64,000 nt of DNA, taken from a virus. A program made the position numbers and the translations under genes. Location: positions 32,001-96,000 of IMG/VR virus record IMGVR_UViG_3300035158_000293; one strand, given 5' to 3'. Numbering within the stretch: the stretch's first letter is position 1; each line of letters opens with the position of its first letter. A model generated the notes under the pieces. It worked only from the letters and a program-made list of their open reading frames with translations, did no database searches and was not told the DNA's origin. Shown piece after piece: positions 3,293-63,893 of this stretch.

Positions 3293-3345
3293 CACAAAAG
3301 TCGCTTTTTTCGTCGCGGTAGTCTTTTTGACGCTGTGTCAATGTT

Positions 3346-3430
3346 GCTTATGTGTGGAGTTCACCCCGCTTATGTGTGGAGTTCACCCCGCTTATGTGTG
3401 GAGTTCACCCCTCTTATGTGTGGAGTTCAC
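3346..3430. repeat. Tandem 22-bp direct repeat x~4 (GCTTATGTGTGGAGTTCACCCC), iteron-like
   Basis: Units at 3346, 3368, 3390 and a partial at 3412; intergenic; no spacers. Confidence 0.9.
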
Positions 3431-3750
3431 TCAGGCTTAGCTTTGAAGTGTACACAGTAAGACCCTTTGTTTGGACCCTCTGCCCAATCACTTGCAGACC
3501 CTTCGCGAACGCTTGGACAAGCGGGTTTGCGTAGTGGTTCTGTTTTCCCCGTTACCTTGTTTACGCGCTCCGTTGGAAAACGTGGATGCCCACAGCGTTG
3601 TTCAGAAGCCGTGTTAGGGTATAAGGTCGAAGGCTCATAATACCTGCACTCTGAGCACGGGCGGTGCATCCTCCGGGTTATACCGCGTAACCAAAGAAAC
3701 ACACAGCAACAAACAGCTAAACTAAGAAGCACAATTGCCGTGGTGATCAT
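3427..3750 (-). CDS. Small membrane-anchored Cys-rich hypothetical protein
   Basis: GGAGGAG RBS before MITTAIVLLSLAVCCCVFLWL hydrophobic segment; CxxC motif. Confidence 0.55.
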   Translation of the reverse strand: MITTAIVLLSLAVCCCVFLWLRGITRRMHRPCSECRYYEPSTLYPNTASEQRCGHPRFPTERVNKVTGKTEPLRKPACPSVREGSASDWAEGPNKGSYCVHFKAKPE

Positions 3751-3965
3751 CGCACTCCTCCATCCACTCTTTAACTGCGGCATAGAATTTCGCGCCGGGG
3801 GGTCGCTCCCACGGCATAAGGTCGGACTTGCGCAAACGTAGTGGTGGACCTGTTCGAGGTAACGCGAAGATGTAACCCTTGTACTGCACGACGCGAGGAC
3901 CACATAAAAACCCGTTTTTGATGCGTATGCAAGGCATTGGAAACCCCTGTCTTAAAACGTCTGAA

Positions 3966-4286
3966 TCAACCCACAGCCTCATACTCTTCAATGACAGCGG
4001 GAACCCAAACAGTCGCGTGAGACACGCTGAATCCATCGGGGTAGTGCCAGACGTAATCCACGGGTTCACCCGTTATGCGAAAGGTGATGGTACAAATGAG
4101 GCCCATACGCACAGTAACCTTGGAGCCGACATGCGGGACTACGCCACCGGGGAGGGTTATCTGTGGGTGAATGTCCAGCCGCTCATCGTCACAGTCGAGC
4201 ATCACCGCAATTTCAGTAAACTCAATGCGCATAGGGGAGGGAACAGCCTTTCGCCTTAGCTCTCTTATTAGCTTTTCTTCGTTCAT
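3966..4286 (-). CDS. Hypothetical protein
   Basis: GAGGA RBS; tight operon packing. Confidence 0.55.
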   Translation of the reverse strand: MNEEKLIRELRRKAVPSPMRIEFTEIAVMLDCDDERLDIHPQITLPGGVVPHVGSKVTVRMGLICTITFRITGEPVDYVWHYPDGFSVSHATVWVPAVIEEYEAVG

Positions 4287-4287
4287 G

Positions 4288-4881
4288 TTATTCCTCTGTT
4301 TTTACGTGTCCAATTTGTTCATCAACCCAAGCCAGAATCCTCTTGGTAGCTGCAAGGGTTTCAGCGTGGTCGTAATCGTCGTCAAGAGGGTCTTTCGTTG
4401 CCAGCCTAAAATCCTTGGAGCTACATTTAGAGTAAGCACAACACCGCAAACAAAAAACACCTCGCGGGTGAGTCTTCTCTAAGAATTTACACAAAGCACA
4501 AGGCCCGTGCCAATCAGGGCTCCATTGGTCCACACCCTTTCCTTGAGCCTCTAGAATTCCAGCCCACTTCTCTCGGACCTTCTCCCACACCTCAAGCGGC
4601 ACGTCCTTAACCCCAACCATCCTTTCCTCGGACATGTTTGACTCCTTAACTGCCCTAACAGATTCACGAAGCAGCCTGTCGGCTTCTTCCTTCGCCTCCT
4701 TGTTATCGGGGTGGAGTAAACACCTTGCGCAAAGCCCCTCGTAAGGGCCATACATACGGTTAGCGCATGTACGGCACCAGCCCAATCCCGTGAACATAGA
4801 AGCGGGAGTGCCATCCAAGCGATAATCCTTGACGTAGTTGTTCTTGTGGCTTGGCTCTAAGGTGCCTCTGTCTCTTGACAT
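4288..4881 (-). CDS. Hypothetical Cys-rich protein
   Basis: AAGGAG RBS; several CxxC pairs. Confidence 0.55.
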   Translation of the reverse strand: MSRDRGTLEPSHKNNYVKDYRLDGTPASMFTGLGWCRTCANRMYGPYEGLCARCLLHPDNKEAKEEADRLLRESVRAVKESNMSEERMVGVKDVPLEVWEKVREKWAGILEAQGKGVDQWSPDWHGPCALCKFLEKTHPRGVFCLRCCAYSKCSSKDFRLATKDPLDDDYDHAETLAATKRILAWVDEQIGHVKTEE

Positions 4882-5129
4882 TGTGTCACTCCTTTAGCTC
4901 GCTGATCCACGACAACAGCGGGAACGTAAACCACACAACATGCGTCGCCATTACCAAAGCGGTGGTACTCGTAACGCGGTGGACTATCGAGAATTTTGAG
5001 TTTTGTTGCAGGTCCATCCGGGTGGCGCATCACCGAAACCTCTGATCCAGCAACAGGGATTACGTCAACAGGCAGAGCAACACTACCCTCCTCGCACGCC
5101 AATATAACAGTAACACCCTGACGTACCAT
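4857..5129 (-). CDS. Hypothetical protein, weakly similar to 3966-4286
   Basis: GGAGGG RBS; shared V(I/V)P.(A/V)GS.V.V.M and V(Y/W)VPAV motifs. Confidence 0.5.
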   Translation of the reverse strand: MVRQGVTVILACEEGSVALPVDVIPVAGSEVSVMRHPDGPATKLKILDSPPRYEYHRFGNGDACCVVYVPAVVVDQRAKGVTQCQETEAP

Positions 5130-5564
5130 TTAGCCCTCCACGCCGAAGGGTACATCGTATATCTGCCCCTGCTCTGGACGCCACGCGATAATGCGATAGC
5201 TCGCGTTTTCACGGTCACAAGCATAATACGCCGTACCTACCTTGTTCCACAGCACCCCTGCTACGTTGCGTCGCACAGAGAGTGTTTGCCCGCCTGCGGT
5301 CAGTATCTCGAGCGCCTTCTGGCTCTCTGGCGGTTCGCCTGTACGCCAACGGCTTTGCCATTCACACGCGGCCTCGCCTCCTATTTTATACAAGCCTGTA
5401 CCGTCGAGACACAGGTGCTTTTTGTCCGCCTTGGAACAGCGCACGTAGTAAAGCGGAACATCGGCTTCGATAACCGCCGCAACCAGAGCTTTCGCTCCAC
5501 AGGAACACGGCGCAAGGTTCTCCGCAATAAAACCGTGTGTGCCCTCTCTATGACGCTGATCCAT
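5130..5564 (-). CDS. Zn-ribbon protein, Lar-like N-terminus
   Basis: LAPCSCG...YYVRCS...EAACEW pattern. Confidence 0.45.
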   Translation of the reverse strand: MDQRHREGTHGFIAENLAPCSCGAKALVAAVIEADVPLYYVRCSKADKKHLCLDGTGLYKIGGEAACEWQSRWRTGEPPESQKALEILTAGGQTLSVRRNVAGVLWNKVGTAYYACDRENASYRIIAWRPEQGQIYDVPFGVEG

Positions 5565-5942
5565 AGCCGCTTCTTTCTCAGAAGTGCGTCTCGTAGTTTT
5601 CTTCGGGATCATAAGCCCACTCCCATTCCTCTGCACGAATCCAGAAAATGTAAAGGGTATCCACGGCGGACAATGCCATAGCCCCAGTCGATTCACGGAC
5701 ATCCACCAAACGAAAGAGCAAAGCGGCTGTCCCTTCTTCTTTTTTGCTCTTCTCGCGCCAATAATAGCGACGCCCACCGTGTACGGGCGGGATGCCATCA
5801 TACCACAAACCGGGGATACCGCTGTTCAATGCTTGCCGATACGTAGCGACTTTGTCGGCCACCAATTTGCACAGCTTTTGTATTTCTCTCACCGGATCGG
5901 AATACTCCACACCACACCCCCTGAAACGGCTGCCAACACCGC

Positions 5943-6458
5943 TCACTCACACATATATTCTTCTGTTCTATACCGGTCAAGCAAAAAACACTCAATTAAA
6001 AAAACAAACAGCAAGACGCCCCCAATCGCGAACCCACGTAGCACACCACGAGGCAAGGCGAAGAAGAGCATCAAACTCGCCCCAAGTAACGCGCCGTACA
6101 CCACAAGGGTCAAAAACCAATTGCGGTCGGGTGGTGCATGTGTAAACGGGTCCGGCTTGGATCGGGCAATGTACGCCTCCGCGCTGTCGGGCATGTATTG
6201 TCCGTTGTAGTAAGCCACGCCGTGTTCACACGTCCGGCATCTTTCACGCTCTCCGCACGCCCCTGTAACGTAACGCGACCCGCCGCATACCGGACACCAA
6301 TTGTTGGTGATGTACCACGGCAGATGCTCGCGAGCCCAACTCCATGTAATACGTGGTTTTCGTGACACGGACACGATGTAACCCTCCTGTGTTGTGATAC
6401 CCTCGAGGTCCAAAGCTGTATCTCCTAAATAGGCGGCAAATCCTTCTCGTCCGCCCAA
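5943..6458 (-). CDS. Zn-finger membrane protein
   Basis: CPVCGG...CRTC followed by two hydrophobic segments; start uncertain. Confidence 0.5.
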   Translation of the reverse strand: MGGREGFAAYLGDTALDLEGITTQEGYIVSVSRKPRITWSWAREHLPWYITNNWCPVCGGSRYVTGACGERERCRTCEHGVAYYNGQYMPDSAEAYIARSKPDPFTHAPPDRNWFLTLVVYGALLGASLMLFFALPRGVLRGFAIGGVLLFVFLIECFLLDRYRTEEYMCE

Positions 6459-6991
6459 TCCACTACCTTGTCCCGCTTGACTTCAATGGTTGGTGGGAGC
6501 GTGTACCAAGTGCCGTCATCGCGCCGGTGTAATTTGGCCGGTTGACATTGTGTCAAGTTAGAGCACGCATCAACACACGGAAGCCAGTCGGAGGGATTGC
6601 CGGTTTTGAATGAGCAACCACACGCCTCACCGTCGTTCCAATAAAGCCCGTCGTAGCCGTTGTCCTGAAGCCACCGCCTGACAAGGTCCGGCAGGATGTC
6701 GTCCATATCGCGGATGTGCCTGCATTCCTTGACATCCACACAATCCCGACCAAGCACTATGCCAAGCCCGCCGGGGCCGGAGTTCAAGCCCCGTATGGAT
6801 GCCATATCGGTCACAAGCACAGCCTCGCATTGCGGACACTCACAAACATGCGTCTTGTACTGAGCGTCACCGTGTTTGCACTCGTCGTAGTCCTTCCTCT
6901 GCATCACGTATCGCAAGTGTTTCCAAACAACCTCACCGTGATACCGACAAGCGGGACAAGATACAAGCTCCAACGTCACTTTTTCACTCAT
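6425..6991 (-). CDS. Cys-rich protein (NGxDGL family)
   Basis: GGAG RBS; WLQDNGYDGL...ACGC shared with 10983-11270. Confidence 0.6.
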   Translation of the reverse strand: MSEKVTLELVSCPACRYHGEVVWKHLRYVMQRKDYDECKHGDAQYKTHVCECPQCEAVLVTDMASIRGLNSGPGGLGIVLGRDCVDVKECRHIRDMDDILPDLVRRWLQDNGYDGLYWNDGEACGCSFKTGNPSDWLPCVDACSNLTQCQPAKLHRRDDGTWYTLPPTIEVKRDKVVDWADEKDLPPI

Positions 6992-7406: not shown

Positions 7407-7490
7407 CAAACTGTCTCCGCTTTGTGTGGTATACCAAGATAAACGACGGGTGTGTCGTCAGTTTACAACACACCCGCCTGTCCTCTCGTA

Positions 7491-13164: not shown

Positions 13165-13483
13165 CTTAGTCCTCCTGTTCAGCCACCCGGTTGGAGGGTA
13201 GCACGTTCTGTTGCCCCTAAATCGATCTGACCCAGTACCTGATCCCGGTCTGTTTTTTCCAACACTTCTCGCAGATTCGAGGTTTACACACAACCTTGGA
13301 AGTATCTGTTTCCTCCACTACTACGGTGAGGTGTGACTTAGGGGGGCTATCCGTTTGCTGGGCCTCCCCGCACATTTCACACACCCACAGATAATAGGTG
13401 CGTTTTGTTTGGCCCTTGCCCTTCTGCTCGGTACCCATTTGCCCTCTCGCGTTCACTTGACACAACGTCAAAAACTGGTGTAG

Positions 13484-16790: not shown

Positions 16791-17615
16791 CTAGCCACAG
16801 GGAACCTCCTCCCATTTACGCCCGTCGAGTTCGGGCAGCTTGTGCATTTTCCTGTCGACCATGATCTGCTTGAAAAAGAATGGGGTGCTGGACTCGACGC
16901 ATTGATCGCGCACACTACGCACCCAATCGGGGTGCATGGGTCGCGCGTTCGGCCCTGACTCGCCGCCGACGATTACCCAGTCGATGCCGTCAATGTCAAC
17001 CGGGAATTCGGTGCCGCTCCAACATGCGAGACAATCACCACATCCCCCGCAACCTGTTTCGTGGATAGAGAGCCAGCGGCGCATATCCACCGGCCCCAAC
17101 ATCGGCTCAATACTGAGAAACCGCACCGCCGCCGGTGTCTGAATCAGGTAGCGAGCCCTCTTGTCGAAGGTACCCTGATTTTCAGCGGTTGCACCCAACC
17201 AAACATTGGGGAGTGGGGATTTGCCCAACCTCCTGAAAAACCGCAACATCCGATCAGCACGTTTCGTGAGTATCTGGTAGATGTGCTGTGGTGTTTTTGA
17301 CGCAACGTCAAGAATCCGCGTTATCCACGCATCGGGAACCCGAGGGTGAAAGAGATCGCCCATCGACGAAACAAATACCCGACGGGGTTTCGTCCATCGG
17401 AGTGGTTTCTCAAGCTGGGATTCCACAAAAGTCGTTTTTCCGTTCCAACGACCGTCCGTTATAACCTCAGAATACTGGGGTGTATTGGGGTTCACGGACA
17501 AACGCTTACCGTCCCGCTCCGCGTAACAATTCTCGCACCCCTCAGAAACCTTACTACACCCTATAACCACATTCCAAGTGGCGTCCGTCCACTCAATGCG
17601 CGATTTGTCTGCCAT
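16791..17615 (-). CDS. Phage Gp37/Gp68 family protein (DUF5131)
   Basis: IEWTDATWN..GCSKVSEGCENCYAE; FVSSMGDLFH; LTKR; WVIVGGESG; PFFFKQ. Confidence 0.92.
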   Translation of the reverse strand: MADKSRIEWTDATWNVVIGCSKVSEGCENCYAERDGKRLSVNPNTPQYSEVITDGRWNGKTTFVESQLEKPLRWTKPRRVFVSSMGDLFHPRVPDAWITRILDVASKTPQHIYQILTKRADRMLRFFRRLGKSPLPNVWLGATAENQGTFDKRARYLIQTPAAVRFLSIEPMLGPVDMRRWLSIHETGCGGCGDCLACWSGTEFPVDIDGIDWVIVGGESGPNARPMHPDWVRSVRDQCVESSTPFFFKQIMVDRKMHKLPELDGRKWEEVPCG

Positions 17616-20087: not shown

Positions 20088-23000
20088 CTATTCCGCGTCC
20101 GCCTCTTTTATGAGCGTCGTGAGGCCCTCTGGCGCGTTAAACGGGTTCGAGCCTTCGGCAGCTTGGAACCAGACTCTCGTAGTGGCCCCTTCCACGAATT
20201 CCCGCAGGGCTGCGTCACTCTCGAACCTCGCAATTATTATATCACCGATTTTTGCCTCATACAAGTTTTTTCTCGGAAAAGATTGCAAAACAAGCAAATC
20301 GTCGGGTCCGGGGCTCTCGATACCATAAGGCCCGAAGGCACACTCTGAAAGGGATTTCAGGGCGTTGACGAACTCCATACCCTTGACCGGGAAGTCCCAC
20401 GGATCGCGTCGGCCTGCAAGCCACCGCCCGAAATACCGGAAGAACGCATTGGGGTCGTCGAAGCCGCGCAGTTTGGCGACCCGCACAATCTCTCCCGCGT
20501 GTACGCTGTACAGCACGTCCAACGTCAGCTTCACTACCTTGTCAAGGGTGGCCTTGTCTGGATTGTAAAGCGGGTGAGGCTCTTCCTCGGGTTCATAGAA
20601 CGAAGCCAGCGTATCCGCCTCCATTTGGAGCTTGCGCTCGAGCTTTTTCAGAATGCTCTCCGCCGCCGTCTTCTGTTTTGGTGTACCTGCGGGAAAGCTT
20701 CTTTTGCTCCCCTCCTGTAGTATTCCGCGGCGCTCCTCTGCAAGCACCCCGTGATGTACCTGTTCAGGGTGCAAACGTGCCACGGCGTCGCTCTCCTGCA
20801 CCTTTTTCAGGTCCACGAAACCACCACGGTCCACAAGTAGTACCTTGTTGCCGGTAACGATGACATCGCCGATTGACATGGACGTGTGATCGATGCCCTT
20901 CTGTTTGAGCAGTTTTCGCGCTTCCCCGTGCGGGCTCCACAACCGCGCCTGCATCGCTCGGAACAGCTTCTCGGGGTCGCGTTCCTTCACCTTGCCAAGC
21001 AGGATATGGGTTTTCCGCAGGTTTTTGGGGTCGGGTAGTGCGTCGTGATCCTTCGCCCAATCGAAACCCATGCCAAGGTCGCGACTCACGCCGGTTTTCA
21101 TGTACCATATTTCGGTGTCACCCTCTGCCAAACCCGGAACGTACCGTGCCGCAACATTGAGGTTGCGATACTCGGTCACTTCGTTGACGGGACTACCCTC
21201 GGCAAGAGGCACCATAACGACACCGCCAATACCGAACACCGCCGGGTGGATGTCCTCCGTGAAATGTTTCGGGAGGCCCTTGACGGGTTTTATCTGCTTG
21301 CGTTTGGGGTACAAGTACTCCGCGTAGTCAAGAAGGGTCTTGCTCAAATCCTTCTCAACGAAGAACGAAGCGCCTTTCACAATCCGACGCCCTCCTCGAC
21401 CCCTCTTAACGCGCCAACCCGCTCGAACCAAACCGCGTATCAGGTCGCGCCCTTTGAGAGGCACGCGCTTGTTCGTTCCAATACCTACGGGTACGTTAAT
21501 CCGCGTGTGCAGGTGCTTCCGTACCCGTCCCGCACGCAGAGGAGGGAACTGTTCGGCAAACCCGTCGGTGTCTTCGTAGTCGGCTTGCTTCTTTTGCTGT
21601 TCTTCCTCTTTTTCCTTCGACGTCTGCGCTTTCGCTTTTGCCGCTTCTGCCTGCGCCCTGTTGAACGCTATCTCGCCCACAAGCTGATCGACGGGCAACA
21701 ACTCCATAAATTTTGCTGGTCGGTCTGATTGTGAGATGGCTACCATGCCCTTGTCTTCGTCGTAAGCCTCCACACGTCGTATAACGGTGGGTTCCTTTGC
21801 GTCTCGGCCTGCCGCGGTTTCCCACTCGGTGCCTACATAACCGGGTTTAACGAGCTTCTTCGCCGCCGCTATGTCCCGGCCTTCTGCAAGGTCATTTGAC
21901 ATTGTGTCACTCGACTCCGCTTTCAAACCGCGTATCATGCTGTCGAGATAGCGGTTGAGTTTTGTGATGCGTAGTCCACCCTCGCGTTTCGCCAAAGCGT
22001 CAAGGTCATCTTCGGTCCAACGCGCTTTTGTTTTCACACGCGCCACAAACGTGTCCAACTGCTCCGGGGCTTTGAATTTGTAGACCGGATTCATGTCACG
22101 ATTGTTCTGTGTGAGGTTTTTGAAGAGCGCACGGGGAACATTCGCACCCCGTGTGTCCTTTGTACCGGCATAACGGGGTTTTGCCGCTTTGCCGGGGGCT
22201 GTTTTCGGCAAATCGTAGTCGACATAAAGGGCAAACTCGTCAACCACCCCGCGCCCCGGCTGCTTCGACCACTCGATTTCGATGGGTTTCCGCGCTTCGA
22301 CAATATCACATCTATTACCTTCGGTAATAGTATGTGTATTTGTCGGCACCTCAGAATCGTCCGGTTTTGACGTTGTGTCAATCGAAACACCCCGCTCGAT
22401 ACGGTCGATAATGCGGAGAATCTCCTGCACGGTGTAGTCACAATCCTCCGCCTCGCCCACCGTAACCTGCTGGTTCACGTTGCGGGCGAGTGCGTTCAGC
22501 TTGTCGAGGGTCCAGTCACGCCCCTGTGCTACGTTGAACGCAAACGCGGACGCTGTAACCTGATCCGGGAACTTGTACGTGAACTCTCGGCTGTTCTCCA
22601 ACGTAATGCGCACAACGGCTTTATCGTTTTTAATCCGCAGGATGCGTGTGCCGTCCACCCGCGCCGTCCGGTAAACATAACGGTCGGGTGCGGAGTCCTC
22701 CACCGTGAGACTCACCTCTATGGTGTTTGCATCCGGTGCAACCGCTTCTGTTTTGGCGGCTATGCGGGAGCGCGGTAGTGTGACCAACGCTTCACCCTTC
22801 TCGAGCTTCGTCATGTCGGTCTGTTTCACCGCAGGCTCGTTGCGGCCCTTGCCGATGGGATACTTGTATGCGTCCCCGCCCTGCCACGGGTAAACCGAGA
22901 GGTCCGACACGGCGGCCTGCTTCCTCACTACCTCTTCCATAAATTCAGGCAGCACGCGCTCCACCGCCTGCGTCACAGCCACCGCGTCAACGTCGGGGGA

Positions 23001-26000
23001 ATCAATCTGCACGGAGTAAACCGACGCCGTCTGCCCATCGCCCACGGCAGCGGACGCACGAATAACGGAGCCAACGACCTGCTCGCCTCGACGTATCGTC
23101 ACACCGCTTTCGTCTCTGCGAAGTGTAACGCGCTTACCGTCTCCGTAGTGAACATCCCGAGTGATTATCGGCGCACGCCACTTGGATTCCCCAAACGTGC
23201 CGCGCGAAGTCTTCAAGGCTACTTCCGGGATGTCATACTTGTGAAGCGTGCTGTTGCCTCTCGGCATCTGCCCCACATGCGCCGCGGCGCTGGTCATCGC
23301 TTGTGCAAACGTGGGGAAGGTGCTCCACAAACGATATGCGTTCACATCGTTGCCCTCATTGACATACACACGGAACGGCCCGTCGGTGGAACCGCTCTCG
23401 GTAGTGAACATGACCGACCACCCGTTTACGAGGTCGGACCCGACGTACTGCTCCTGCGGCTCCAAAAATTCGACGATGCTCTCTTGGAACGGGTTCTTAT
23501 TCCGCGGGTAGTAAATGTCCGTATCCGGGTCGTAATAGCAACCCTCGCGGGGGTCGTAATAAACCACCTTGCCCGTGGGCGTCTGGAAAGGCCCCTCGAG
23601 TCCTTGGCGCTTCTTGTACCGTGTGCGGTCAATTGTGCCAAGGCGTTTCCAGCCCTCGCCCAAGAGCCCAACGCCGTCTGTCCTATCCCCACCGTGAATC
23701 AGGTTGTACCGCGCAAGACTGTCGAGATAAACGCGCCCGTTCAAAAGCATGAACGTCGGCTGTCCCGCGTCTCCCCGGTCAACGTACACCAAGTCATCGA
23801 GACGCTCGACGGGGTGCTTGACGCGCTCCCCGATGTCCCGCAGAGCCTGCTCGGTAGTCACCTTGCCTTTTTGAACCTGCGCCGCGATAACAGCGGCCAG
23901 CTCGGGTGAGATATTTGGGAAGGCGTTGTGTACGTCCACGGCATTCGTGGCGCTTTTAAGCATGTTGTCACCCGCCTCCGTAGTCTCCTGCGCCAAACCC
24001 GCGTTCTGGCCTTGGTCGAGTGCCGCAAACCCGCGGTCTGTTGCCGGTAACGTCACCGACGTGTCTGCGGTTTTGCCTTCTTCTGTTTCCTCTGGCGGCA
24101 CAAACGGTATTTGTGCGCCGAACAGCGGATGCAGGTCAGCCGGATCGGGAGCAAACGGGGCGCTTCCGGCACCCGCCTCAATGGTAGTCATGGGCGTGGA
24201 AGCCGCGTCCTGTAAGGGGTTCAGCAGGGCGTGGCGGTAGTCGGCTCTGTGCGCCAAAATACGCCCACGTTCAACAATTCCACCCCTGAAGAACGCTAAA
24301 CTCCCTTCCACCCGCGTGAATTTTGGAAAATGTGTACCCGCCACACTCTCACACACCTCCCGTTTACGCAACACGGGCATACCGCTCACAGTCTTACCCA
24401 CAACCTCATACGCACCTGCGGCTATCCCGTACCTTCCCCGACCCATTACGCTTTCTTTCAAGCCTTCCGTACCTTTTCCCTTTCTCCTTCCTTCCTCCTC
24501 CATTGACATTGTGTCAACATCGAAACCCTGCACGCCATTTTCCGTCTCGCTGACCTCTTCCGGTAGTGTCTGTCCGCCCTCTTCTCCCTCGACCTTCACT
24601 CCCGCCTTTTTAGCAACCGTCATGGTCCACGGCGTCCAGCTCACGTACATCTCCTTCGTCGTCGAACTTATGGACACCGAACCGTAATCTCCCGACACGT
24701 TGCAGGACAACCTTCTGCTTCCACTCACGGGTTCCCAATCTGGATGTGGCGTACCTTTCACCTTCGGGTCGTAGTGCATTGCGTTTTGCTCTTTCATCCA
24801 CCGGTCAATCCTCTTTACCTCCCTGCCTCTCACGTCCAGCCTCTTCAACTCCGCGTCTGCCCAGTCACTCGGGTCGCTGTTGGGATTCGCGAGTTCCTTC
24901 TCCACCCGCTTGATAGCATCCCGTATGTACGGCTGGAGTAACTTGGGTGCTTTACCCACGTTCTTCTTCGCTTCCGCTACGAGCTTCCTGTACTGCTCCC
25001 TTTGTTCCTCCTGCGTACCGGCTCCCTCTTCCAGCCTCAGAACCTTTCGTGCGAGTTTGCCCGTCTCTCCCTTTGCTTCATGCAGATTACCCATCCCGCT
25101 TTCCTCACTCTCTTTCGCGAGTGTCGGGTCCGCCGTAATGTGATCCTCGTTGTCATTCGTGAGCAACCCGAAGCCGAGTAGTCTTTCCCTTGCACCTTCC
25201 TCTTCCGGCTCTGCGGGTTCGGGGTTCGCTTGTTTCTGCACCTTCTGGCTCTCGGGGGTTTCGGTTCCCGCATCCCTCGTGTATTCCTCAAGAAACGCTT
25301 CAATCATGGCGTCGCACTCTTCCGGCAGGTCTTCGTACATCCCGTGTATTTCCTTGACCAGACTGTGTACCTCCTCGAACGTGTTCGGCACGTCGTAAGC
25401 TTTCCCTTTGAGCACTACGAGCGTACCCGCTTCCGTCTTCTTCACTCCCCACGTTCCGAAGCGGCTTGTGATCATACCCGCCTCAATCGTACCCTGATAC
25501 GTCTCTGCGATTTCCTCAAAGTACGGCTGTTGCTTCCTCCTATCCACGCAATCGAGGCACATCGTCCGTGCTTCCTCGTCCACCACGACGGGTTCATCTT
25601 CCGCAAGCACCGTGTTGCACGACGCACACCTCTCTATGTCGAGTGGAACGTAGTCCCATGTGATTTGCGCTTTTTGCCTTTGCTCTTCCAGCTTCAACTC
25701 ACCCACCGCACGGTCGAACGCTTGCCGGAACAAGTCTGTGAAATACTCCTCGTCCTCTATTTGCGGCATGTGCATCCACGCCGCTCTCGCAAGCTGTTTT
25801 GTGAGCGCCACACCCTCGTTGTTCCTTGCCGCGTAGTTCGTTGCTTCCCTTTGGAGCTTGGGGGACAGCTTCTCGGTTGTGTCCTTCCGATACAGCTTTG
25901 CTATTTCATCCCCGAAGCGTTTCTGTTTGCTCTCGGAAACTACTGTACTTTCGTTCGGTTCATTTATTGACATTGTGTCAAACTCCCTTCGGTGGGTTTG

Positions 26001-36877: not shown

Positions 36878-36932
36878 TTTGTGATCCTTTCGTTTTTTGT
36901 TTGTTTCAACCTTTTTTTTTCAACATAACCCG

Positions 36933-39945: not shown

Positions 39946-39967
39946 GCACACCCCCTTTTTTATTTTT

Positions 39968-39996
39968 AGTTTACCCGGTGGAGCGAGTTTTGTCAA
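39968..39996 (-). promoter_or_regulatory. Sigma70-type promoter of the cas operon
   Basis: TTGACA-N17-TAAACT with T-rich upstream element. Confidence 0.8.
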
Positions 39997-40037
39997 GAAA
40001 AAGCAAGAAAAAAATTTAGGCGCACATGCAATCACGG

Positions 40038-41187: not shown

Positions 41188-41403
41188 AGTTTTTTTCGCG
41201 TTTCTTCGCTCACAGGGAGAATCTTTCTTATTTTCCCTGTGAGATAACAGGTTGTAGTCACCCGATCCCCCACCCCCACTTCCTCTTCGGTTATGAGGTG
41301 GAGAACACCTTTATTACTGTAAGTGTAAAGACTTACGATTTTGTACCCTGTTAAATCCGTCTGTTGCGCTTCGTTGTCTGCTACACGTATTTTTGACATT
41401 GTG

Positions 41404-42675
41404 TCACACCCCCAAACGTACAAGCGGAATTCTTGCTCGTGCTTGTGCAATTTTTGCACTTCCCAAATCTTTCTCAATTAACACAAAGTCGTACTCCAAA
41501 CGCTGGGCCGCAAGTCCTGTTGTTCCTGAACCGGCAAACGGGTCCAAAAGCAAACCGCCCTCGGGAGGTTGTACGAGCTTACACAAATACTCCATGAGTG
41601 CAAGCGGCTTGACTGTTGGATGTTTGTTGACTACACGACCATCGTCTGTGCGTTCCTTTCGTGAGGCTTTCGCGCAGTAAAAGAACCGCGCAGCACTACC
41701 TTCGTCCCCGAACGTGTCCGTCGCGACCGTATCAGGCTTCCATTCCCCGTACACATTCTTTCCAGCACTCTCGGACATCTGCCTGCGCGTCCCTTTCTTC
41801 ATGAACCCGCTTTTTGTGTTCGGGAAGTGTTGTAGAACCTCAGCGCTCCCGTCGTGGATCAGGTTGGCGGGGAAGCGGCCTTTTTTGGAAGCACGCAACC
41901 CTCCTTGTGCAGTAGGATCACCCTTACCCACTAGCCCCATAAACTTATCCGACATAAAACCAGCGCCAGAGGCACCATCCTGCCTAACCCAACCCGGACC
42001 ATCCACTCTACATCCGTCTATGTTTAAGCCAGCTACACCATGCTCAAGTGCGTTTTGTGCGTATGTTCCATCGAGCGGTTTCATGCAAAGCCACCAACAT
42101 TCTACGGATGGCTTGAGTGCCGTCCCCCAGCCATCCCAAAGTTGGGCAGCGTGAGTGGCGGGGGCGGTGATGTCCAGCACGTTCTCGCCCTTTTGGTATT
42201 CCCCCGGACGATAGTTGTGATCTTTGGCGTTACTACGATTGAGGTGCTCTGTGCCACCACCTTTCCTTCGAACTTTAGCAATCACCTCCCGCTCCGCACC
42301 AGCGGCCTTGTCTAGTGCCTTTGAGATGTCATGGTTTTTGGGGAACCCCTGTCCTGTAACGTAGTAAACACAATCCCTTACAACAAAACCTGCGTCCTCT
42401 AATCCCATAGCGGTCCAATGGCTCGTGCGAGGGAGCGCCCAACACAGACAATGTGCGCCGGGTTTTAGAACCCGCAGGACTTCCCCCATAACAAGTGTCA
42501 ACCACTCAATCCATTTGTCCCTACCTCCTTTGTTTGAATCCCATTGCTTGCCCATGAATGAGATTCCGGCGGGAGGGTCGGTGACACATGCGGTGAATGT
42601 GTTGTCCGGGAGCCGCTTCAAGACATCCAAGCAGTCTCCGTTGACTACGGTGTTTTTTATGTCATGGAGAATCAT
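41404..42675 (-). CDS. DNA methyltransferase, N6A/N4C beta class
   Basis: VTDPPAG; GFPKNHD; GWGTALKP; HPTVKP; LDPFAGSGTTG. Confidence 0.92.
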   Translation of the reverse strand: MILHDIKNTVVNGDCLDVLKRLPDNTFTACVTDPPAGISFMGKQWDSNKGGRDKWIEWLTLVMGEVLRVLKPGAHCLCWALPRTSHWTAMGLEDAGFVVRDCVYYVTGQGFPKNHDISKALDKAAGAEREVIAKVRRKGGGTEHLNRSNAKDHNYRPGEYQKGENVLDITAPATHAAQLWDGWGTALKPSVECWWLCMKPLDGTYAQNALEHGVAGLNIDGCRVDGPGWVRQDGASGAGFMSDKFMGLVGKGDPTAQGGLRASKKGRFPANLIHDGSAEVLQHFPNTKSGFMKKGTRRQMSESAGKNVYGEWKPDTVATDTFGDEGSAARFFYCAKASRKERTDDGRVVNKHPTVKPLALMEYLCKLVQPPEGGLLLDPFAGSGTTGLAAQRLEYDFVLIEKDLGSAKIAQARARIPLVRLGV

Positions 42676-47720: not shown

Positions 47721-47789
47721 CAGAACGCTCCTGCTTGCTTGGCTGTTTCCAACTTTCGGAGGATTTCCTGCACAGCTATTGACACAATG

Positions 47790-48569
47790 TCAATCCTCAG
47801 CCTCTGCCACTTGTAGTCTACGGAGGATTTCGTCTCTCCCCGGCTTGCAAACGTCCTGCAAAGGCGTCACCTCGGCAAAAGACAAAACTGCGCAGGTGTG
47901 ACACTTGCGGTCTTCATCATACAAACACGCGGGACAGTCCGGGTTGCACACAACCGGAGTAGGGGCAGTTACAGGTTTGGTGTGTTTGGTTATCTCCATC
48001 TTCTTCCCGCCGTTGATCTCCACCTTCATGGTGAAACTCACACCAGCATAATCCGCCAAACCTCCTGTAGTCAGTTGCTTTTGTACGGGTGTATGCGGGG
48101 TTTGTTGTGCAGGCCCTCGCGGAGCAGGTGCAGTATGGCGCATACAACGATTATCGAGGTAAACACGTATGTTCGAAGAGTGACACTCGGGGCAAGCCCG
48201 TTTTGCCGCTTCTGTTTCTTCAACCGTTTCCTTCTCCCACCAAACGGTGACTGTTTCACAATCTGCACAGTCCGTTCGAAAAAGCTTTTTGCTCTGCGGC
48301 ATCACCATACTCCAATCCACGTCTTCCAACAGCAAGTAGTAAGCACAGTCAGGGTTATGGGGTCCGGCATCGTCGTAATCCCAATCGTAACCGGGCTTCT
48401 TTATTGCACAACTGCCGCAATAGCGCTCCTGCTCACACCAATACGCTGTCTGTTCTGTCACAATGCGCTTACACCCGTCGCCAGCACACTTGTACAACCG
48501 CTTGTGTTTAGGATCGGTCACTACCCTCGCTGTCTCGTTCTTCTTCCGATCCGGTTTCGGGTTCCCCAT
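47790..48569 (-). CDS. Cys-rich multi-Zn-ribbon protein
   Basis: Multiple CxxC pairs. Confidence 0.55.
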   Translation of the reverse strand: MGNPKPDRKKNETARVVTDPKHKRLYKCAGDGCKRIVTEQTAYWCEQERYCGSCAIKKPGYDWDYDDAGPHNPDCAYYLLLEDVDWSMVMPQSKKLFRTDCADCETVTVWWEKETVEETEAAKRACPECHSSNIRVYLDNRCMRHTAPAPRGPAQQTPHTPVQKQLTTGGLADYAGVSFTMKVEINGGKKMEITKHTKPVTAPTPVVCNPDCPACLYDEDRKCHTCAVLSFAEVTPLQDVCKPGRDEILRRLQVAEAED

Positions 48570-52440: not shown

Positions 52441-52509
52441 CCATAAAATCTACTTTTTACAGCATGGCCGGGGTGATATGCAAATAATACATTGACGTTG
52501 TGTCAACAT

Positions 52510-60072: not shown

Positions 60073-60410
60073 CACCCGCTCCTTTGTTTCTTGTCCGGCA
60101 CGATACCACACCGGCCTGAAATTTTGGTCGTGTACTCTTTACACCGGTTATACACGTCTGACAACATTGACGTTGTGTCAAAAAACTCTGGTGGCACCGG
60201 ATAACCCTCTGTCAAATCTCGAAACATCGTCACCGTGATCTTCGTCCAATGTTTGAAGTTCGCGGTAGTGAAGAAACATAAACCTTCTGTTGGGCTGAAC
60301 GCCAAGTGGCACGCCCCATTACCATCCAAAACGTCGAATACGATGATCACATGGTCGGCCATCGCTGGACAGTAAGGAGCCAAGAAGTAACCTATGATGC
60401 GAGCATTCAT
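60072..60410 (-). CDS. Hypothetical protein
   Basis: Overlap packing. Confidence 0.5.
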   Translation of the reverse strand: MNARIIGYFLAPYCPAMADHVIIVFDVLDGNGACHLAFSPTEGLCFFTTANFKHWTKITVTMFRDLTEGYPVPPEFFDTTSMLSDVYNRCKEYTTKISGRCGIVPDKKQRSG

Positions 60411-62749: not shown

Positions 62750-62774
62750 TCTCTTCCCTTTCGTTGTCGTTCAG

Positions 62775-62806
62775 AAAAAAGGCCCGGTCGGTGGGGAACC
62801 GGGCCT
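62775..62806 (-). terminator. Intrinsic terminator
   Basis: GGCCCGGT/ACCGGGCC stem plus T6. Confidence 0.8.
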
Positions 62807-62828
62807 CGAACATGCCGGGGGGTCGAGA

Positions 62829-63239
62829 TCAGAAACCCGGCACGGTGTAGAGCCTGTTGATGCACTCCGCGAGGGCGTCTGCGTCGTTCTCGGGAACGGC
62901 CTCGGGGCTGAGGGCGGCGAGCAGGCCGCGTGCCTTGACGACCAACTGCCACGTAAGCACGACAACGGGGGTGTCCTCGGAGGAGGCGGCGAACTCGACG
63001 AGCCTCTTAGCGGCGAAGATGTATGCCGCTTTCCTCATTTGGAGCGTGGGGGCGTCACCGGCGGCGTACTTGATCTGCCGGTACTCGTCGTAGCTGGCGG
63101 GGTCTCTTGTCTGAAGCACCTCGACCGGGGTACGCCGGATTTCGCGCACCATTGCCTCGGCCACGGTCACGACATGATACTCGCCATCGACCTCGTGAAA
63201 CGGATTGACAGCTTCGTTCAGCGCAGTCTTGTAATCCAT
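62829..63239 (-). CDS. Hypothetical early protein (136 aa)
   Basis: AAGGGA RBS before MDYKTAL; between perfect promoter and terminator. Confidence 0.7.
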   Translation of the reverse strand: MDYKTALNEAVNPFHEVDGEYHVVTVAEAMVREIRRTPVEVLQTRDPASYDEYRQIKYAAGDAPTLQMRKAAYIFAAKRLVEFAASSEDTPVVVLTWQLVVKARGLLAALSPEAVPENDADALAECINRLYTVPGF

Positions 63240-63326
63240 GTCTTGTCCCTTCTCCGAGCGACGATTCAAAAAAGGCGGAGCCGGTCGTCGTCGCCCAACC
63301 AGCCCGTTTTTCAAGTCTTCACCCAT

Positions 63327-63355
63327 ATTATACCCGATGGATCGCGGGGTGTCAA
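63327..63355 (-). promoter_or_regulatory. Perfect consensus sigma70 promoter
   Basis: TTGACA-N17-TATAAT with AT-rich UP element at ~63359-63375. Confidence 0.92.
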
Positions 63356-63411
63356 GCGAATTTCAAAAAAAATTTCCGGGACCGGCGGGAATTACACGGT
63401 AAAATCTGGCC

Positions 63412-63627
63412 TCACCTGTATTTATCGCGACCTGTGCGTCGGACAATTTTCAGATTCCCCGCCTCGATCCACTTCACGAACCGGTACGCCTCACACCGCT
63501 CCGCGCAGTATTTGCGCAGGATGTTCCGCTCCCCGCCTGCCTCCAAATCCTGTATCGCCTGCCACACACGACAGCCGGAGAGACTACAGTACTCCCGTAA
63601 GAATTTATGCGATTGGGCGTCGCTCAC
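63412..63627 (-). CDS. Small hypothetical protein
   Basis: GTGA overlap with upstream gene. Confidence 0.45.
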   Translation of the reverse strand: MSDAQSHKFLREYCSLSGCRVWQAIQDLEAGGERNILRKYCAERCEAYRFVKWIEAGNLKIVRRTGRDKYR

Positions 63628-63893
63628 TTTTCGTTCTCGCGCTTATCCGTGGCCTCCGTGGACTCGTCGGCTTTCCCGTCCGGGGTTTTCGGTCGGATCA
63701 CCGGCGCACCGGTTTTCTTGTCCACACCGCCTATCACGGTGGCGTCCTCTACAAGTGGACCGGCCAATTTGCCTTTCCCTTTGCATTTGGGGCAAGGGAT
63801 GCACTCACCATCCGATAACCTGATGACTTTTTCGCCTTTGCATTTGTCACACAGCATACTACCGCCGTCCTTTCCTCGTTGACATTGTGTCAA
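63624..63893 (-). CDS. Small DnaJ-type Zn-finger protein
   Basis: CDKCKGEK...CPKCKGKG; true start probably MLCDK. Confidence 0.55.
   Translation of the reverse strand: MTQCQRGKDGGSMLCDKCKGEKVIRLSDGECIPCPKCKGKGKLAGPLVEDATVIGGVDKKTGAPVIRPKTPDGKADESTEATDKRENEK

What the first reader, a model, noticed from the sequence alone, without database searches (positions are those of the whole stretch)
3327..63893. Window-wide 15-bp quasi-palindrome (at least 17 copies) imprinted on coding sequences
Seen: TTGAC(A/G)TTGTGTCA(A/C) or its reverse complement, 15 copies matching this consensus and 2 with one change; 13 forward, 4 reverse, on average one per ~4 kb. Most are inside genes in different frames (peptides FDTTS, DTMS, LTQCQ, LTLCQ, FDVVS), including five in the 3604-aa gene and one in cas8c, so conservation is at the DNA level. 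Chance expectation at uniform base composition is ~5e-4 copies per window. The asymmetric centre is also conserved. Inference: a dimeric-protein site for genome-scale function (like matS, SlmA/Noc sites or parS): segregation, compaction, packaging, self-marking or recombination, rather than an ordinary operator.
Basis: partly seen in the sequence, partly recalled or inferred. Interest (0 to 1): 0.85.

Follow-up and report, generated by a model that had tools for sequence, protein, structure and literature searches.

The report
Phage-wide docking sites, probably for ParB
A large uncultured phage repeats one 15-letter near-palindrome about every 5 kb along its genome, even inside genes, most likely as docking sites for its own partner-less ParB-type DNA clamp, which would make this a plasmid-style genome-wide control system in a large phage that shows no sign of lysogeny.

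Summary

**Counts.** TTGACRTTGTGTCAM occurs 18 times in the window at ≤1 mismatch, against 0.02 expected. It occurs 30 times in the 124-kb virus record, and 16 times in a 96-kb record that abuts it, so about 46 sites in about 219 kb.

**DNA-level signal.** Sites lie in two reading frames and both orientations. The third frame is a TGA stop.

**Placement.** Sites are enriched between genes and are spaced more evenly than chance.

**Relatives.** Related phages carry their own versions at similar density, for example TTGACAYTGTGTTAA and ATTTACGCWGCGTAAAT.

**Candidate reader.** These phages share an orphan ParB-family protein, with no ParA and no integrase found. Its fold matches ParB, Noc and KorB. 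In 7 of 12 ParB lineages, a copy of that lineage's palindrome sits in the parB promoter.

**Promoters.** In this phage, six sites overlap the −35 and spacer of strong sigma70-type promoters, parB's included.

**Best reading (about 0.55).** These are KorB/Noc-like docking sites for the phage ParB clamp. Binding is not shown.

**Prior art.**
- The closest published cases are KorB–OB on plasmid RK2 and the unexplained 17-bp dyad repeats of Cluster O mycobacteriophages.
- Earlier reports of this scan describe the same arrangement on other phage DNA.

The parts
3327..3341 (+). Motif copy with 1 mismatch (TTGACGCTGTGTCAA). Intergenic, 129 nt upstream of the start of the 3524-aa gene and 5 nt from a 4 x 22-bp tandem array.
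3346..3430 (.). Iteron-like tandem array, 3.9 copies of a 22-bp unit, directly beside the site at 3327. Its link to the motif system is unknown.
4875..4889 (+). Exact motif copy at the junction of two small ORFs (4288-4881 and 4857-5129).
6542..6556 (+). Exact motif copy inside a 199-aa ORF, frame 0 (LTQCQ).
13457..13471 (-). Exact motif copy, intergenic (between ORFs ending at 13484 and starting at 13293 on the - strand).
17297..17311 (-). Motif copy with 1 mismatch, inside the DUF5131 gene (LDVASK).
21896..21910 (+). Exact copy in the 3604-aa gene (SDTMSN).
22367..22381 (+). Exact copy in the 3604-aa gene (IDTTSK).
24503..24517 (+). Exact copy in the 3604-aa gene (VDTMSM).
25967..25981 (+). 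Exact copy in the 3604-aa gene (FDTMSI).
27128..27142 (+). Exact copy in the 3604-aa gene (FDTTSN).
32165..32179 (-). Exact copy in the 1609-aa gene (FDVVSN).
34946..34960 (+). Copy with 1 mismatch in the 1609-aa gene (FDSMSS).
38276..38290 (-). Exact copy inside cas8c (Cas_Csd1), frame 0 (LTLCQ).
41393..41407 (+). Exact copy overlapping the 3' end of the N6_N4 DNA methylase gene (41404-42675).
47779..47793 (-). Exact copy overlapping the 3' end of ORF 47790-48569, 59 nt upstream of the next gene's start.
52492..52506 (+). Exact copy, intergenic, just after a hairpin plus T-run that looks like a terminator.
60167..60181 (+). Exact copy in a 112-aa ORF (FDTTSM).
63879..63893 (+). Exact copy, intergenic, about 22 nt upstream of a Shine-Dalgarno sequence plus ATG on the - strand.

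Best explanation
The 15-mer TTGAC(A/G)T-T-GTGTCAA is a near-palindromic (7-1-7) DNA site read by a phage-encoded dimeric DNA-binding protein.

The most likely reader is the phage's single, partner-less ParB-family protein. It is 440 aa and lies outside the window at contig 111135-112457, which would be window coordinate 79135-80457.

Proposed mechanism (inferred, not shown):
1. ParB is made early from a strong sigma70-type promoter whose -35 hexamer TTGACA is the left arm of a site.
2. ParB binds there and at five more promoters of the same build. This shuts them down, its own included, in the manner of class-I KorB operators.
3. The other ~40 sites are evenly spaced, about one per 4.7 kb, and are written into coding sequence where no intergenic DNA is available. 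They act as loading points from which CTP-bound ParB clamps slide over the whole ~219-kb genome.
4. This gives a genome-wide effect: long-range silencing, compaction, or marking of phage DNA.

Shown here: the sites, their statistics, their lineage-specific variants, their position in parB promoters, and the ParB fold and motifs.

For: **Real, DNA-level signal.**
- 18 sites in the window against 0.02 expected; 30 in the contig; 16 in the abutting record G001.
- Both orientations and two frames are used.
- The 15 positions are nearly invariant and the flanks are random.
- Motif-derived 10-mers are the commonest 10-mers in G000, G011 and G008.

**Lineage-specific versions at similar density.**
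- G011: TTGACAY-T-GTGTTAA, about 40 in 95 kb.
- G012: TRACAC-W-GTGTYA, 21 in 143 kb.
- G009: TTGACAC-S-GTGTCAA.
- L148/L149: TTGACAC-W-GTGTCAA.
- G008: ATTTACGC-W-GCGTAAAT, 14 at ≤1 mismatch and 20 at ≤2, in 74 kb.

**Shared ParB.** All of these encode an orthologue of the same ParB.

**Site in the parB promoter.**
- This holds in 7 of 12 distinct ParB lineages.
- The joint chance is 2.5e-8, or 2.4e-4 after allowing for intergenic enrichment.
- Among 16 genes shared by four genomes, parB scores highest: 3 of 4 automatically, 4 of 4 by eye.

**Protein family.**
- ParB_N plus HTH_ParB above Pfam cut-offs.
- TIGR00180 at 75 bits against a cut-off of 58.
- Profile hits to Noc (8.8e-29), ParB (9.4e-29) and KorB (1.6e-14).
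- AF2 model with residues 47-250 at pLDDT about 90. It matches ParB-parS 6t1f (TM 0.74), the KorB-KorA-DNA complex 8qa9 (0.71) and Noc 7nfu (0.64).
- GxRR and ENxxxxR motifs are present.

**Orphan status.** There is one ParB, no ParA and no integrase or resolvase in G000, G001, G008, G011 or G012, which is 98% complete.

**Promoter class.** Six sites share UP-like tract, TTGACA-site and TGnTATACT.

**Genome-scale placement.**
- Gap CV is 0.67, 0.58 and 0.55 against about 0.95 expected (P 0.003, 0.0002, 0.004).
- Sites are enriched outside ORF cores in all four genomes.
- No positional conservation in orthologues.

**Positive control.** The same palindrome scan recovers canonical parS clusters next to parB in L298, L308 and L310.
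Against: - No binding data exist. The ParB link is association only.
- In 5 of 12 ParB lineages (G013, G014, G015, L152/153, L160) I found no repeated palindrome in 14-21 kb.
- polA also has a site about 180-210 nt upstream in 3 of 4 genomes. Constant placement upstream of parB is therefore not unique, and parB could simply belong to another regulator's regulon.
- The fraction of sites with a -10 box (7 of 46) is no higher than for any TTGACR hexamer on the sense strand (P 0.12).
- The conserved asymmetry (RT versus AC next to the centre; perfect palindromes are almost absent, 1 in 219 kb) is not expected for a symmetric ParB dimer.
- In G012, 19 of 21 sites have the same central base on the sense strand, and 12 of 21 sit within 45 nt of a ribosome-binding site. 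That looks more like a stoperator or a transcript-linked signal.
- G000's CTP-pocket motif is GFRR, not GERR.
- The recognition-helix comparison (H in the TGACA-type lineages, N in G008) cannot be told apart from plain phylogeny.
- The host is unknown, so a host protein is not excluded.
Confidence: 0.55

Rival explanations
1. The sites are read by a different phage-encoded repressor, not ParB. This would be a global operator or roadblock network like the L5 stoperators or the Cluster O dyad repeats, and parB would merely be one regulated gene.
For: - Half the sites are intergenic.
- Six overlap promoters.
- polA is as constantly site-associated as parB in one test.
- G012 shows an orientation bias of 19 of 21 and sites next to ribosome-binding sites.
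- 5 of 12 ParB lineages show no motif.
- Most early genes have no recognisable family, so an unknown reader is possible.
- Stoperators are documented in PMC9283540 (Introduction passages).
Against: - No other DNA-binding family was found among about 60 proteins scanned. The one exception is a weak, below-cut-off HTH_31 match on a methylase.
- In G000/G001 site orientation is unrelated to transcription (20 same, 26 opposite), unlike stoperators.
- No integrase was found, so there is no sign of lysogeny to maintain.
- parB is the only shared gene with a site upstream in all four genomes.
Confidence: 0.2
2. The motif is a binding site of a host protein (a transcription factor, nucleoid protein or uptake-type signal) that the phage has accumulated.
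For: The host is unidentified, so its genome could not be scanned. The left arm equals the sigma70 -35 consensus TTGACA.
Against: - Relatives with 53-65% GC carry different versions, including the unrelated ATTTACGCWGCGTAAAT. This fits a reader that co-evolves within each phage.
- A scan of IMG/VR found only the sister record with more than two copies among 110 stretches.
Confidence: 0.07
3. The motif is simply a promoter element: the -35 plus spacer of an early promoter class read by host RNA polymerase, possibly with a phage factor.
For: - Six sites share a full strong-promoter build.
- 7 of 46 have TAnnnT at 16-18 nt in the sense direction and 0 of 46 in the antisense direction.
- The parB promoters of relatives use the site as their -35.
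Against: - 39 of 46 sites have no -10.
- About half are deep inside genes.
- G008's version overlaps the -10, not the -35, and does not resemble a promoter hexamer.
- Even spacing is not expected of promoters.
Confidence: 0.05
4. The motif acts in RNA, as a 6-bp hairpin with a 3-nt loop that marks processing, stability or translation control.
For: - It is palindromic, so it folds in transcripts of either orientation.
- In G012, 12 of 21 sites lie just upstream of a ribosome-binding site, and the loop base is biased.
Against: - The A/G choice at position 6 is equally common in the orientation that gives G·U and the one that gives A·C in the sense RNA (9 versus 13).
- In G012 the commonest form, TAACAC..GTGTCA, has an A·C mismatch (10 of 21).
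- Promoter-overlapping sites lie upstream of the transcript start.
- Nothing in Rfam matched in the 60 kb scanned except tRNAs.
Confidence: 0.03
5. The sites are targets of an enzyme acting on DNA, for restriction-modification, nicking, recombination, replication initiation or packaging.
For: - Every site contains GAC-N5-GTC.
- Two N6/N4 methylase genes lie in the window.
- ParB sits in the replication and recombination module, next to recA, sbcCD-like genes and polA.
- One site adjoins four 22-bp iterons.
Against: - Modification or restriction targets are usually avoided, not accumulated, and are shorter.
- Mixed orientation argues against strand-specific nicks.
- Headful T4-like packaging needs no repeated site (recalled knowledge).
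Confidence: 0.05

Closest known systems
KorB and its 12 OB operators on IncP-1 plasmid RK2
   Same: - A ParB-family protein with an odd-length palindromic site (6-1-6 there; 7-1-7 or 8-1-8 here).
- About one site per 5 kb, scattered over the replicon.
- Some sites overlap promoter -35 regions and others are far from any promoter.
- KorB is a CTP-dependent sliding clamp that silences at a distance.
- My model matches the KorB-KorA-DNA complex 8qa9 at TM 0.71.

Source: PMC11790492, abstract and passages plus a reference-list title naming '12 binding sites'. The classes of OB position are recalled, not read.
   Different: - The replicon is a ~219-kb phage with T4-type portal, RecA, PolA and RNR, not a plasmid.
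- No ParA/IncC was found.
- No KorA or TrbA-like clamp-locker was identified (not searched for).
- There are ~46 sites, half of them inside genes.
- The site is asymmetric next to its centre.
- Sequence similarity to KorB is lower than to chromosomal ParB or Noc.
[quoted passage not shown]
   Same: An orphan ParB paralogue that acts without ParA, with a palindromic site scattered over the replicon, coding regions included. It is the best profile hit in the PDB (7nfu, 8.8e-29). The number and placement of Noc sites are recalled.
   Different: - It scores far below the Noc equivalog cut-off (65 against 315 bits).
- The N-terminus is a lysine-rich, low-confidence tail (pLDDT below 50), not a recognisable amphipathic membrane helix.
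- There is no evidence of a link to cell division.
17-bp dyad repeats of Cluster O mycobacteriophages (Corndog)
   Same: - More than 30 copies of a 7-3-7 inverted repeat throughout a phage genome.
- About one third lie inside genes, and most are not at promoters.
- There is no orientation rule, no integrase and no parAB.
- A ParB-like domain protein is encoded.
- The authors predict a dimeric binder and call the function unknown.

Source: PMC4351075, passages.
   Different: - Different sequence, host and phage type (a ~70-kb siphovirus).
- The authors considered their ParB-like protein unlikely to serve genome stability, and proposed no reader.
- Here the comparative evidence points to ParB, and spacing is shown to be more even than chance.
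Stoperators of Cluster A mycobacteriophages (L5 gp71)
   Same: More than twenty copies of a 13-mer spread over the phage genome, both at promoters and in short intergenic gaps, silencing transcription (PMC9283540, Introduction). G012's placement next to gene starts, with one orientation, looks similar.
   Different: - Stoperators are asymmetric and read by a monomer.
- They work only in one orientation relative to transcription.
- They belong to temperate phages.
- Here the site is a dyad, orientation is mixed in G000/G001, G011 and G008, and no integrase is present.
Canonical ParABS centromeres; dispersed IR centromere sites of phage-plasmid N15
   Same: A ParB HTH reading palindromic sites with copies near parB. 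N15 has four natural IR sites (10.1101/862136, Methods passage); that they are dispersed over the N15 genome is recalled. My scan recovers canonical parS clusters beside parB in L298, L308 and L310.
   Different: - No ParA partner.
- Tens of sites over the whole genome, not a cluster.
- Odd-length sites unrelated to TGTTNCACGTGAAACA.
- No sign of plasmid or prophage maintenance.

Membership tests
ParB/Spo0J/Noc/KorB protein family (the candidate reader) | ParB N-terminal (CTP-binding) domain | tested here: met
   PF02195 at 39.4 bits (cut-off 26.3). TIGR00180 at 75.2 bits (cut-off 58.45). Foldseek match to 6t1f, 7nfu and 8qa9.
ParB/Spo0J/Noc/KorB protein family (the candidate reader) | Arginine patch GxRRxR and ENxxR box in the nucleotide pocket | tested here: met
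   GFRRHA in G000, GERR in 9 orthologues and GARR in one. ENSQDSR / ENSEDGR align to GERRWRAA and ENVQR of Caulobacter ParB. The E-to-F change is unusual; KorB has GARRYR (PMC11790492).
ParB/Spo0J/Noc/KorB protein family (the candidate reader) | Central helix-turn-helix DNA-binding domain | tested here: met
   PF17762 at 26.6 bits (cut-off 22.6). The model has pLDDT above 90 over residues 150-250.
ParB/Spo0J/Noc/KorB protein family (the candidate reader) | CTP binding and hydrolysis, with clamp closure on the cognate site | not testable with these tools
   Needs biochemistry.
ParB/Spo0J/Noc/KorB protein family (the candidate reader) | C-terminal dimerisation domain | tested here: inconclusive
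   Residues 266-377 are helical and conserved in the clade (W-x-G-x-R-E-K, LLW-D/E-RGD). They have pLDDT 55-80 and no match in the PDB or the Atlas.
KorB-OB type global control system | Many copies of one palindromic site spread over the replicon, some overlapping promoters and some distant | tested here: met
   46 sites in 219 kb. Six are in one promoter class at the -35 and spacer; about 24 are deep in genes.
KorB-OB type global control system | The regulator's own gene is under a site (autoregulation) | tested here: met
   A site lies in the parB promoter in 7 of 12 lineages. Repression itself was not tested.
KorB-OB type global control system | Partner ParA (IncC) for partition | tested here: not met
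   PF13614 was absent from G000, G001, G008, G011 and G012, while the 14 control genomes all rang. Only this one ParA-type model was searched.
KorB-OB type global control system | Clamp-locking co-repressor (KorA or TrbA) | not tested
   No search was made.
Noc-NBS nucleoid occlusion | Noc equivalog score and N-terminal amphipathic membrane-targeting helix | tested here: not met
   TIGR04285 at 64.8 bits against a cut-off of 315. The N-terminus MAKKKKSPKKGKKK is basic and modelled as disordered.
Stoperator system (Cluster A mycobacteriophages) | Asymmetric site whose orientation follows the direction of transcription | tested here: not met
   G000/G001: 20 same, 26 opposite. G011: 24 and 16. 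G008: 8 and 6. Only G012 is biased, at 19 of 21.
Stoperator system (Cluster A mycobacteriophages) | Temperate phage with an immunity repressor | tested here: not met
   No tyrosine or serine recombinase in five records, one of them 98% complete. A repressor of the L5 type was not searched for.
matS/MatP | 13-bp GTGACRNYGTCAC read by MatP and confined to one macrodomain | not tested
   The half-site likeness (TGAC/GTCA) is recalled only. The spacing differs, and the sites here cover the whole genome. No MatP search was made.

The most novel reading that the evidence does not exclude
A clade of large (about 140-220 kb) T4-portal-type phages, with no sign of lysogeny, runs a plasmid-style control system. 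An orphan ParB CTP clamp loads at evenly spaced, lineage-specific palindromes written even into coding sequence, and coats the entire phage chromosome. It switches off early promoters and also organises, compacts or marks phage DNA as 'self' during infection. Similar lattices in unrelated ParB-bearing phages (L198: 21 sites in 20.5 kb; L208; L168) would make this a widespread, undescribed use of ParB in phage biology. It might also explain the Cluster O dyad repeats.
Probability: 0.4. Interest if true: 0.8.

Novelty: new variant of a known kind. Interest (0 to 1): 0.62.

Why it matters
ParB-family CTP clamps are known from chromosome and plasmid partition (ParABS), nucleoid occlusion (Noc) and plasmid gene silencing (KorB).

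A partner-less ParB with tens of evenly spaced loading sites over a jumbo-size phage genome would add a fourth setting: control or organisation of a viral chromosome during infection.

It would also offer a testable reader for the dyad repeats of Cluster O mycobacteriophages, which PMC4351075 (2015) leaves as of unknown function.

The system comes with natural specificity variants: three or more site versions paired with ParB orthologues. These could be used to map how ParB HTH domains change specificity, or serve as orthogonal DNA-labelling pairs.

Tried and rejected
**15-bp in-frame insertion (mini mobile element).** In three orthologue alignments that span a site, two show no 5-residue insertion and one lies in an indel-rich stretch. 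Rejected as the general origin.

**Second palindrome, CGCACATGTGCG.** It is only the stem of the type I-C CRISPR repeat.

**Link between the CRISPR array and the motif.** None was seen.

**Host identification through the CRISPR repeat.**
- The 30-mer gave 0 hits in genome contigs.
- A 21-mer gave one single-copy hit in a Pedobacter contig with no array. I treat this as chance.

**Near matches.** None in the phage or plasmid collections. The best portal match among named phages is 27% identical.

**ParB searches.**
- ParB alone found no relatives in viral contigs.
- The word-based protein search found 3 weak hits.
- The metagenome scan with the ParB alignment gave only 1 true orthologue among the 80 loci kept.

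**De novo motif search in five ParB lineages** (G013, G014, G015, L152/153, L160). Nothing convincing was found. TCGCGCNNCGCG in L155 was dismissed as GC-rich noise.

**C-terminal domain of ParB.** No informative match.

**Rfam on 60 kb of G001.** Only 12 tRNAs.

**First orthologue-group control.** My ORF caller dropped parB in two GC-rich genomes, so I redid the control with tblastn. Its polA result (3 of 4) is kept and reported.

**Literature.** Searches for a phage ParB with dispersed sites found no description. They cover only the held open-access library, and supplements were not opened.

Full report
**1. The observation**

A search for TTGACRTTGTGTCAM with up to one mismatch finds 18 copies in the 64-kb window: 15 exact and 3 with one change, 13 forward and 5 reverse. 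One hundred dinucleotide-preserving shuffles gave a mean of 0.02 and never more than 1. The coordinates, the five copies in the 3604-aa gene and the copy in cas8c are all right.

The window is bases 32001-96000 of a 123,798-base virus record. That record holds 30 copies at ≤1 mismatch, spread from end to end.

Over the 46 sites of G000 and G001 together (section 2), all 15 positions are nearly invariant. The exceptions are R at position 6 (22 A, 22 G, 2 T) and A or C at position 15. The five bases on either side show no conservation.

Coding copies read xD(T/V/I/S)(T/M/V)Sx in one frame and (L/V)T(Q/L/H)(C/R/S)(Q/H) in another. The third frame never occurs, because it reads TGA in both orientations.

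**2. The genome**

Only one other record had several copies: a 95,753-base contig (G001) with 16 copies.

G001 is not an independent relative:
- Its first 141 bases equal the last 141 of the window's contig at 100% identity.
- Its last 499 bases match the contig's first 499 at 87%.
- Nothing else is shared, and both have 52.6% GC.

I read the two records as the two halves of one ~219-kb genome, or of two very close strains. This is an inference; CheckV's completeness figures (75% and 47%) do not add up neatly. Together they hold 46 sites, one per 4.7 kb.

Nearly all genes are on the - strand. Pfam finds:
- a T4-type portal, a probable large terminase with an intein, SbcCD-like proteins, a flap nuclease, RecA and PolA;
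- class II-type RNR, ThyX and thymidylate kinase;
- a cas5-cas8c-cas7 set with no cas3 in the window, and two N6/N4 DNA methylases;
- three proteins of 3298-3604 aa.

No tyrosine or serine recombinase was found in G000, G001 or three relatives.

**3. Relatives carry their own versions**

The portal protein led to five related contigs at 46-52% identity. An alignment of ParB orthologues led to more. A de novo count of inverted repeats and k-mers gave these results:

| Genome | Size, GC | Site | Copies |
|---|---|---|---|
| G011 | 95 kb, 60% GC | TTGACAY-T-GTGTTAA | about 40 |
| G012 | 143 kb, 98% complete | T(A/G)ACAC-W-GTGT(C/T)A | 21 |
| G009 | 24 kb | TTGACAC-S-GTGTCAA | 3-4 |
| L148/L149 | 6-7.5 kb | TTGACAC-W-GTGTCAA | 3 and 5 |
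| G008 | 74 kb, 63% GC | ATTTACGC-W-GCGTAAAT | 14 at ≤1 mismatch, 20 at ≤2 |

G008's palindrome is quite different from the others.

Words derived from the motif are the most frequent 10-mers in G000, G011 and G008.

The general form is an odd-length palindrome (7-1-7 or 8-1-8). The G000 site is a derived, asymmetric version: its left half is TTGACRT and its right half is TTGACAC. The perfect palindrome occurs once in 219 kb.

After removing duplicates (L158 = G012, L148 = L149, L151 = L154, L152 = L153), the ParB clade has 12 distinct lineages. Seven have such a site. In five (G013, G014, G015, L152/153, L160) I found none in the 14-21 kb available.

**4. The candidate reader**

The window's contig encodes one ParB-family protein (440 aa, contig 111135-112457, outside the window).

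Family evidence:
- It has ParB_N and HTH_ParB above Pfam's cut-offs.
- It passes TIGR00180 but not the Noc equivalog.
- It matches PHROG 'ParB-like partition protein' families over most of its length.
- A profile of 11 orthologues hits Noc (8.8e-29), Caulobacter ParB (9.4e-29), Spo0J and KorB (1.6e-14) in the PDB.

An AlphaFold2 model built on that alignment has pLDDT around 90 for residues 47-250. Foldseek aligns it to three structures:
- ParB-parS, 6t1f, TM 0.74;
- the KorB-KorA-DNA complex, 8qa9, TM 0.71;
- Noc, 7nfu, TM 0.64.

The nucleotide-pocket motifs are present: GFRR here, GERR in nine orthologues and GARR in one, plus ENSxxxR. KorB itself has GARRYR (PMC11790492, passage).

The N-terminus is a lysine-rich, disordered tail. 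The C-terminus has a conserved helical domain with no known relative, followed by an acidic tail.

No ParA (PF13614) is present in five records, including the 98%-complete G012. The control genomes all rang.

**5. Link between ParB and the sites**

In every one of the seven motif-bearing lineages, a copy lies in the promoter of parB.

- In G000, G009, G011, G012, L149 and L242 the left arm TTGACA is the -35 hexamer. A TAnnnT or CATACT -10 follows 16-17 nt later.
- In G008 a near-copy covers the -10 and the start site of a TTGACA/TATTAT promoter.

The joint chance of this placement is 2.5e-8 from site density alone. It is 2.4e-4 if each lineage's intergenic enrichment is allowed for.

As a control, I asked how often a site lies upstream of each of 16 genes shared by four genomes:
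- parB scored 3 of 4 automatically, and 4 of 4 on inspection of G008.
- No other gene exceeded 2 of 4.
- An earlier, cruder version of this control gave polA 3 of 4, with sites about 180-210 nt upstream. parB is therefore the most constant target, but not the only one.

The first residue of the recognition helix is H in the five TGACA-type lineages and N in G008. This agrees with the ParB link, but it cannot be separated from phylogeny.

The same palindrome scan finds canonical parS clusters beside parB in three unrelated metagenome loci. This shows the approach recovers true ParB sites.

**6. Placement**

*Promoter class.* Six sites share a strong promoter build: G001 5390, 28391, 28812, 31798 and 41591, and the parB site at G000 112520. 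The build is an A/T-rich upstream tract, TTGACA-TTGTGTCAA, then (G/A)CGTGTGG-TATACT. Four of them also share a ~65-nt leader. The genes they drive have no recognisable family.

*-10 boxes.* Overall, 7 of 46 sites have a -10 in the sense direction and 0 of 46 in the antisense direction. That share is no higher than for any TTGACR hexamer (P 0.12).

*Intergenic enrichment.* Sites are enriched outside ORF cores in all four large genomes:

| Genome | Sites outside ORF cores | Non-core share of genome |
|---|---|---|
| G000+G001 | 18 of 46 | 12.6% |
| G011 | 23 of 40 | 15.1% |
| G012 | 17 of 21 | 11.1% |
| G008 | 7 of 14 | 11.4% |

*Spacing.* Gaps between sites are more regular than random in three of four genomes: CV 0.67, 0.58 and 0.55 against about 0.95 (P 0.003, 0.0002, 0.004). 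G008 is not significant.

*Position in orthologues.* Sites are not at matching positions in orthologous genes of relatives. In two of three testable cases they are not 15-bp insertions.

*Orientation.* Orientation is unrelated to transcription in G000/G001 (20 same, 26 opposite), G011 (24 and 16) and G008 (8 and 6). In G012, however, 19 of 21 sites have T at the centre on the sense strand (P 2e-4), and 12 of 21 lie within 45 nt of a ribosome-binding site plus start codon. I cannot explain that difference.

**7. RNA or DNA?**

If the hairpin mattered in RNA, the G variant at position 6 should prefer the orientation that gives G·U over the one that gives A·C. It does not: 9 against 13. In G012 the commonest form has an A·C mismatch. 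Sites at the -35 lie outside the transcript. I conclude that the signal is read in DNA.

**8. Mechanism proposed**

The best-supported reading is a KorB/Noc-like system:
- The orphan ParB binds the palindromes.
- It represses a set of strong early-type promoters, including its own.
- It loads at evenly spaced sites so that sliding clamps can reach the whole chromosome.

What that achieves is not known. Long-range silencing, compaction, separation from host DNA and self-marking are all possible.

Every step after 'the sites exist and parB carries one' is inference. I put the ParB reading at about 0.55. The main rival, an unidentified phage repressor with parB merely in its regulon, stands at about 0.2.

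**9. What is known**

- KorB of RK2 is a ParB-family CTP clamp with an odd-length palindromic operator. It reaches promoters up to 1.5 kb away (PMC11790492, abstract and passages). A title in that paper's reference list names 12 binding sites.
- L5-type repressors bind more than twenty asymmetric 13-mers throughout the genome, oriented with transcription (PMC9283540, Introduction).
- Cluster O mycobacteriophages carry more than 30 copies of a 17-bp dyad repeat throughout their genomes. About a third lie in genes, and the phages have a ParB-like domain protein but no integrase or parAB. The authors call the function unknown (PMC4351075, passages).
- Full-text searches for a phage ParB with dispersed sites found no description. 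They cover only the held library, and supplements were closed.
- Earlier follow-up reports of this scan describe the same arrangement on several other phage genomes. I did not test those. My own scan of more distant ParB-bearing viral loci found three further candidates: L198 with 21 copies of TGATTTA-S-TAAATCA in 20.5 kb, L208 and L168.

**10. Verdict**

It is a new variant of a known kind. The kind has been seen on plasmids (KorB), on chromosomes (Noc) and, unexplained, in Cluster O phages.

Noticed in passing
window 3346-3430: Four tandem 22-bp units (GCTTATGTGTGGAGTTCACCCC, 3.9 copies, 98% matches) lie 5 nt from the motif copy at 3327, in the gap upstream of the 3524-aa gene. They look like iterons (an origin or a second regulator's array). 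A TGgTACAAT extended -10 lies downstream.
   Followed up: partly
window 35969-40041: A phage-borne type I-C cas7, cas8c and cas5 set (Pfam E 2e-84, 7e-93, 2.5e-24). A short array of 30-nt repeats (7 copies at ≤2 mismatches, 36934-37403) sits between cas7 and cas8c. No cas3 was seen among the proteins scanned. The repeat was not found as an array in 185,579 species genomes.
   Followed up: partly
G001 (L120, L121, L119): contig 28391, 28812, 31798, 41591, 5390: Five near-identical strong promoters (A/T tract, TTGACA, TGnTATACT). Four have a shared ~65-nt leader ending in GGAGAAGGGAGC, and they drive small genes of unknown function with zinc-ribbon-like N-termini. There was no Rfam match for the leader.
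   Followed up: partly
G001 (L119) 3811-7496: A cluster of 12 tRNA genes on the - strand.
   Followed up: no
window 1-3198, 20088-30902, 31008-35837; G001 77615-87511: Four very large genes (3524, 3604, 1609 and 3298 aa) in one phage. They were not analysed here.
   Followed up: no
window 41404-42675 and 43704-45239: Two N6/N4 DNA methylase genes. The second has a weak N-terminal HTH_31 match (below cut-off). A motif copy overlaps the 3' end of the first.
   Followed up: no
L198 (IMG/VR contig of 69 kb), L208, L168: Unrelated ParB-bearing viral contigs with their own dense odd palindromes: TGATTTA-S-TAAATCA, 21 copies in 20.5 kb; ATTGCT-RTTTY-AGCAAT, 5 copies in 20.5 kb; TGATT-N4-AATCA, 10 copies in 19 kb.
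   Followed up: partly
G012 whole record: 19 of 21 sites have the same central base on the sense strand, and 12 of 21 sit within 45 nt of a ribosome-binding site. The other three genomes do not show this, and it is unexplained.
   Followed up: partly
L126 4610-7489 (contig 100610-103489): A 959-aa protein next to the portal, probably the large terminase, has a weak intein-splicing-domain match (E 9.5e-5, below cut-off).
   Followed up: no
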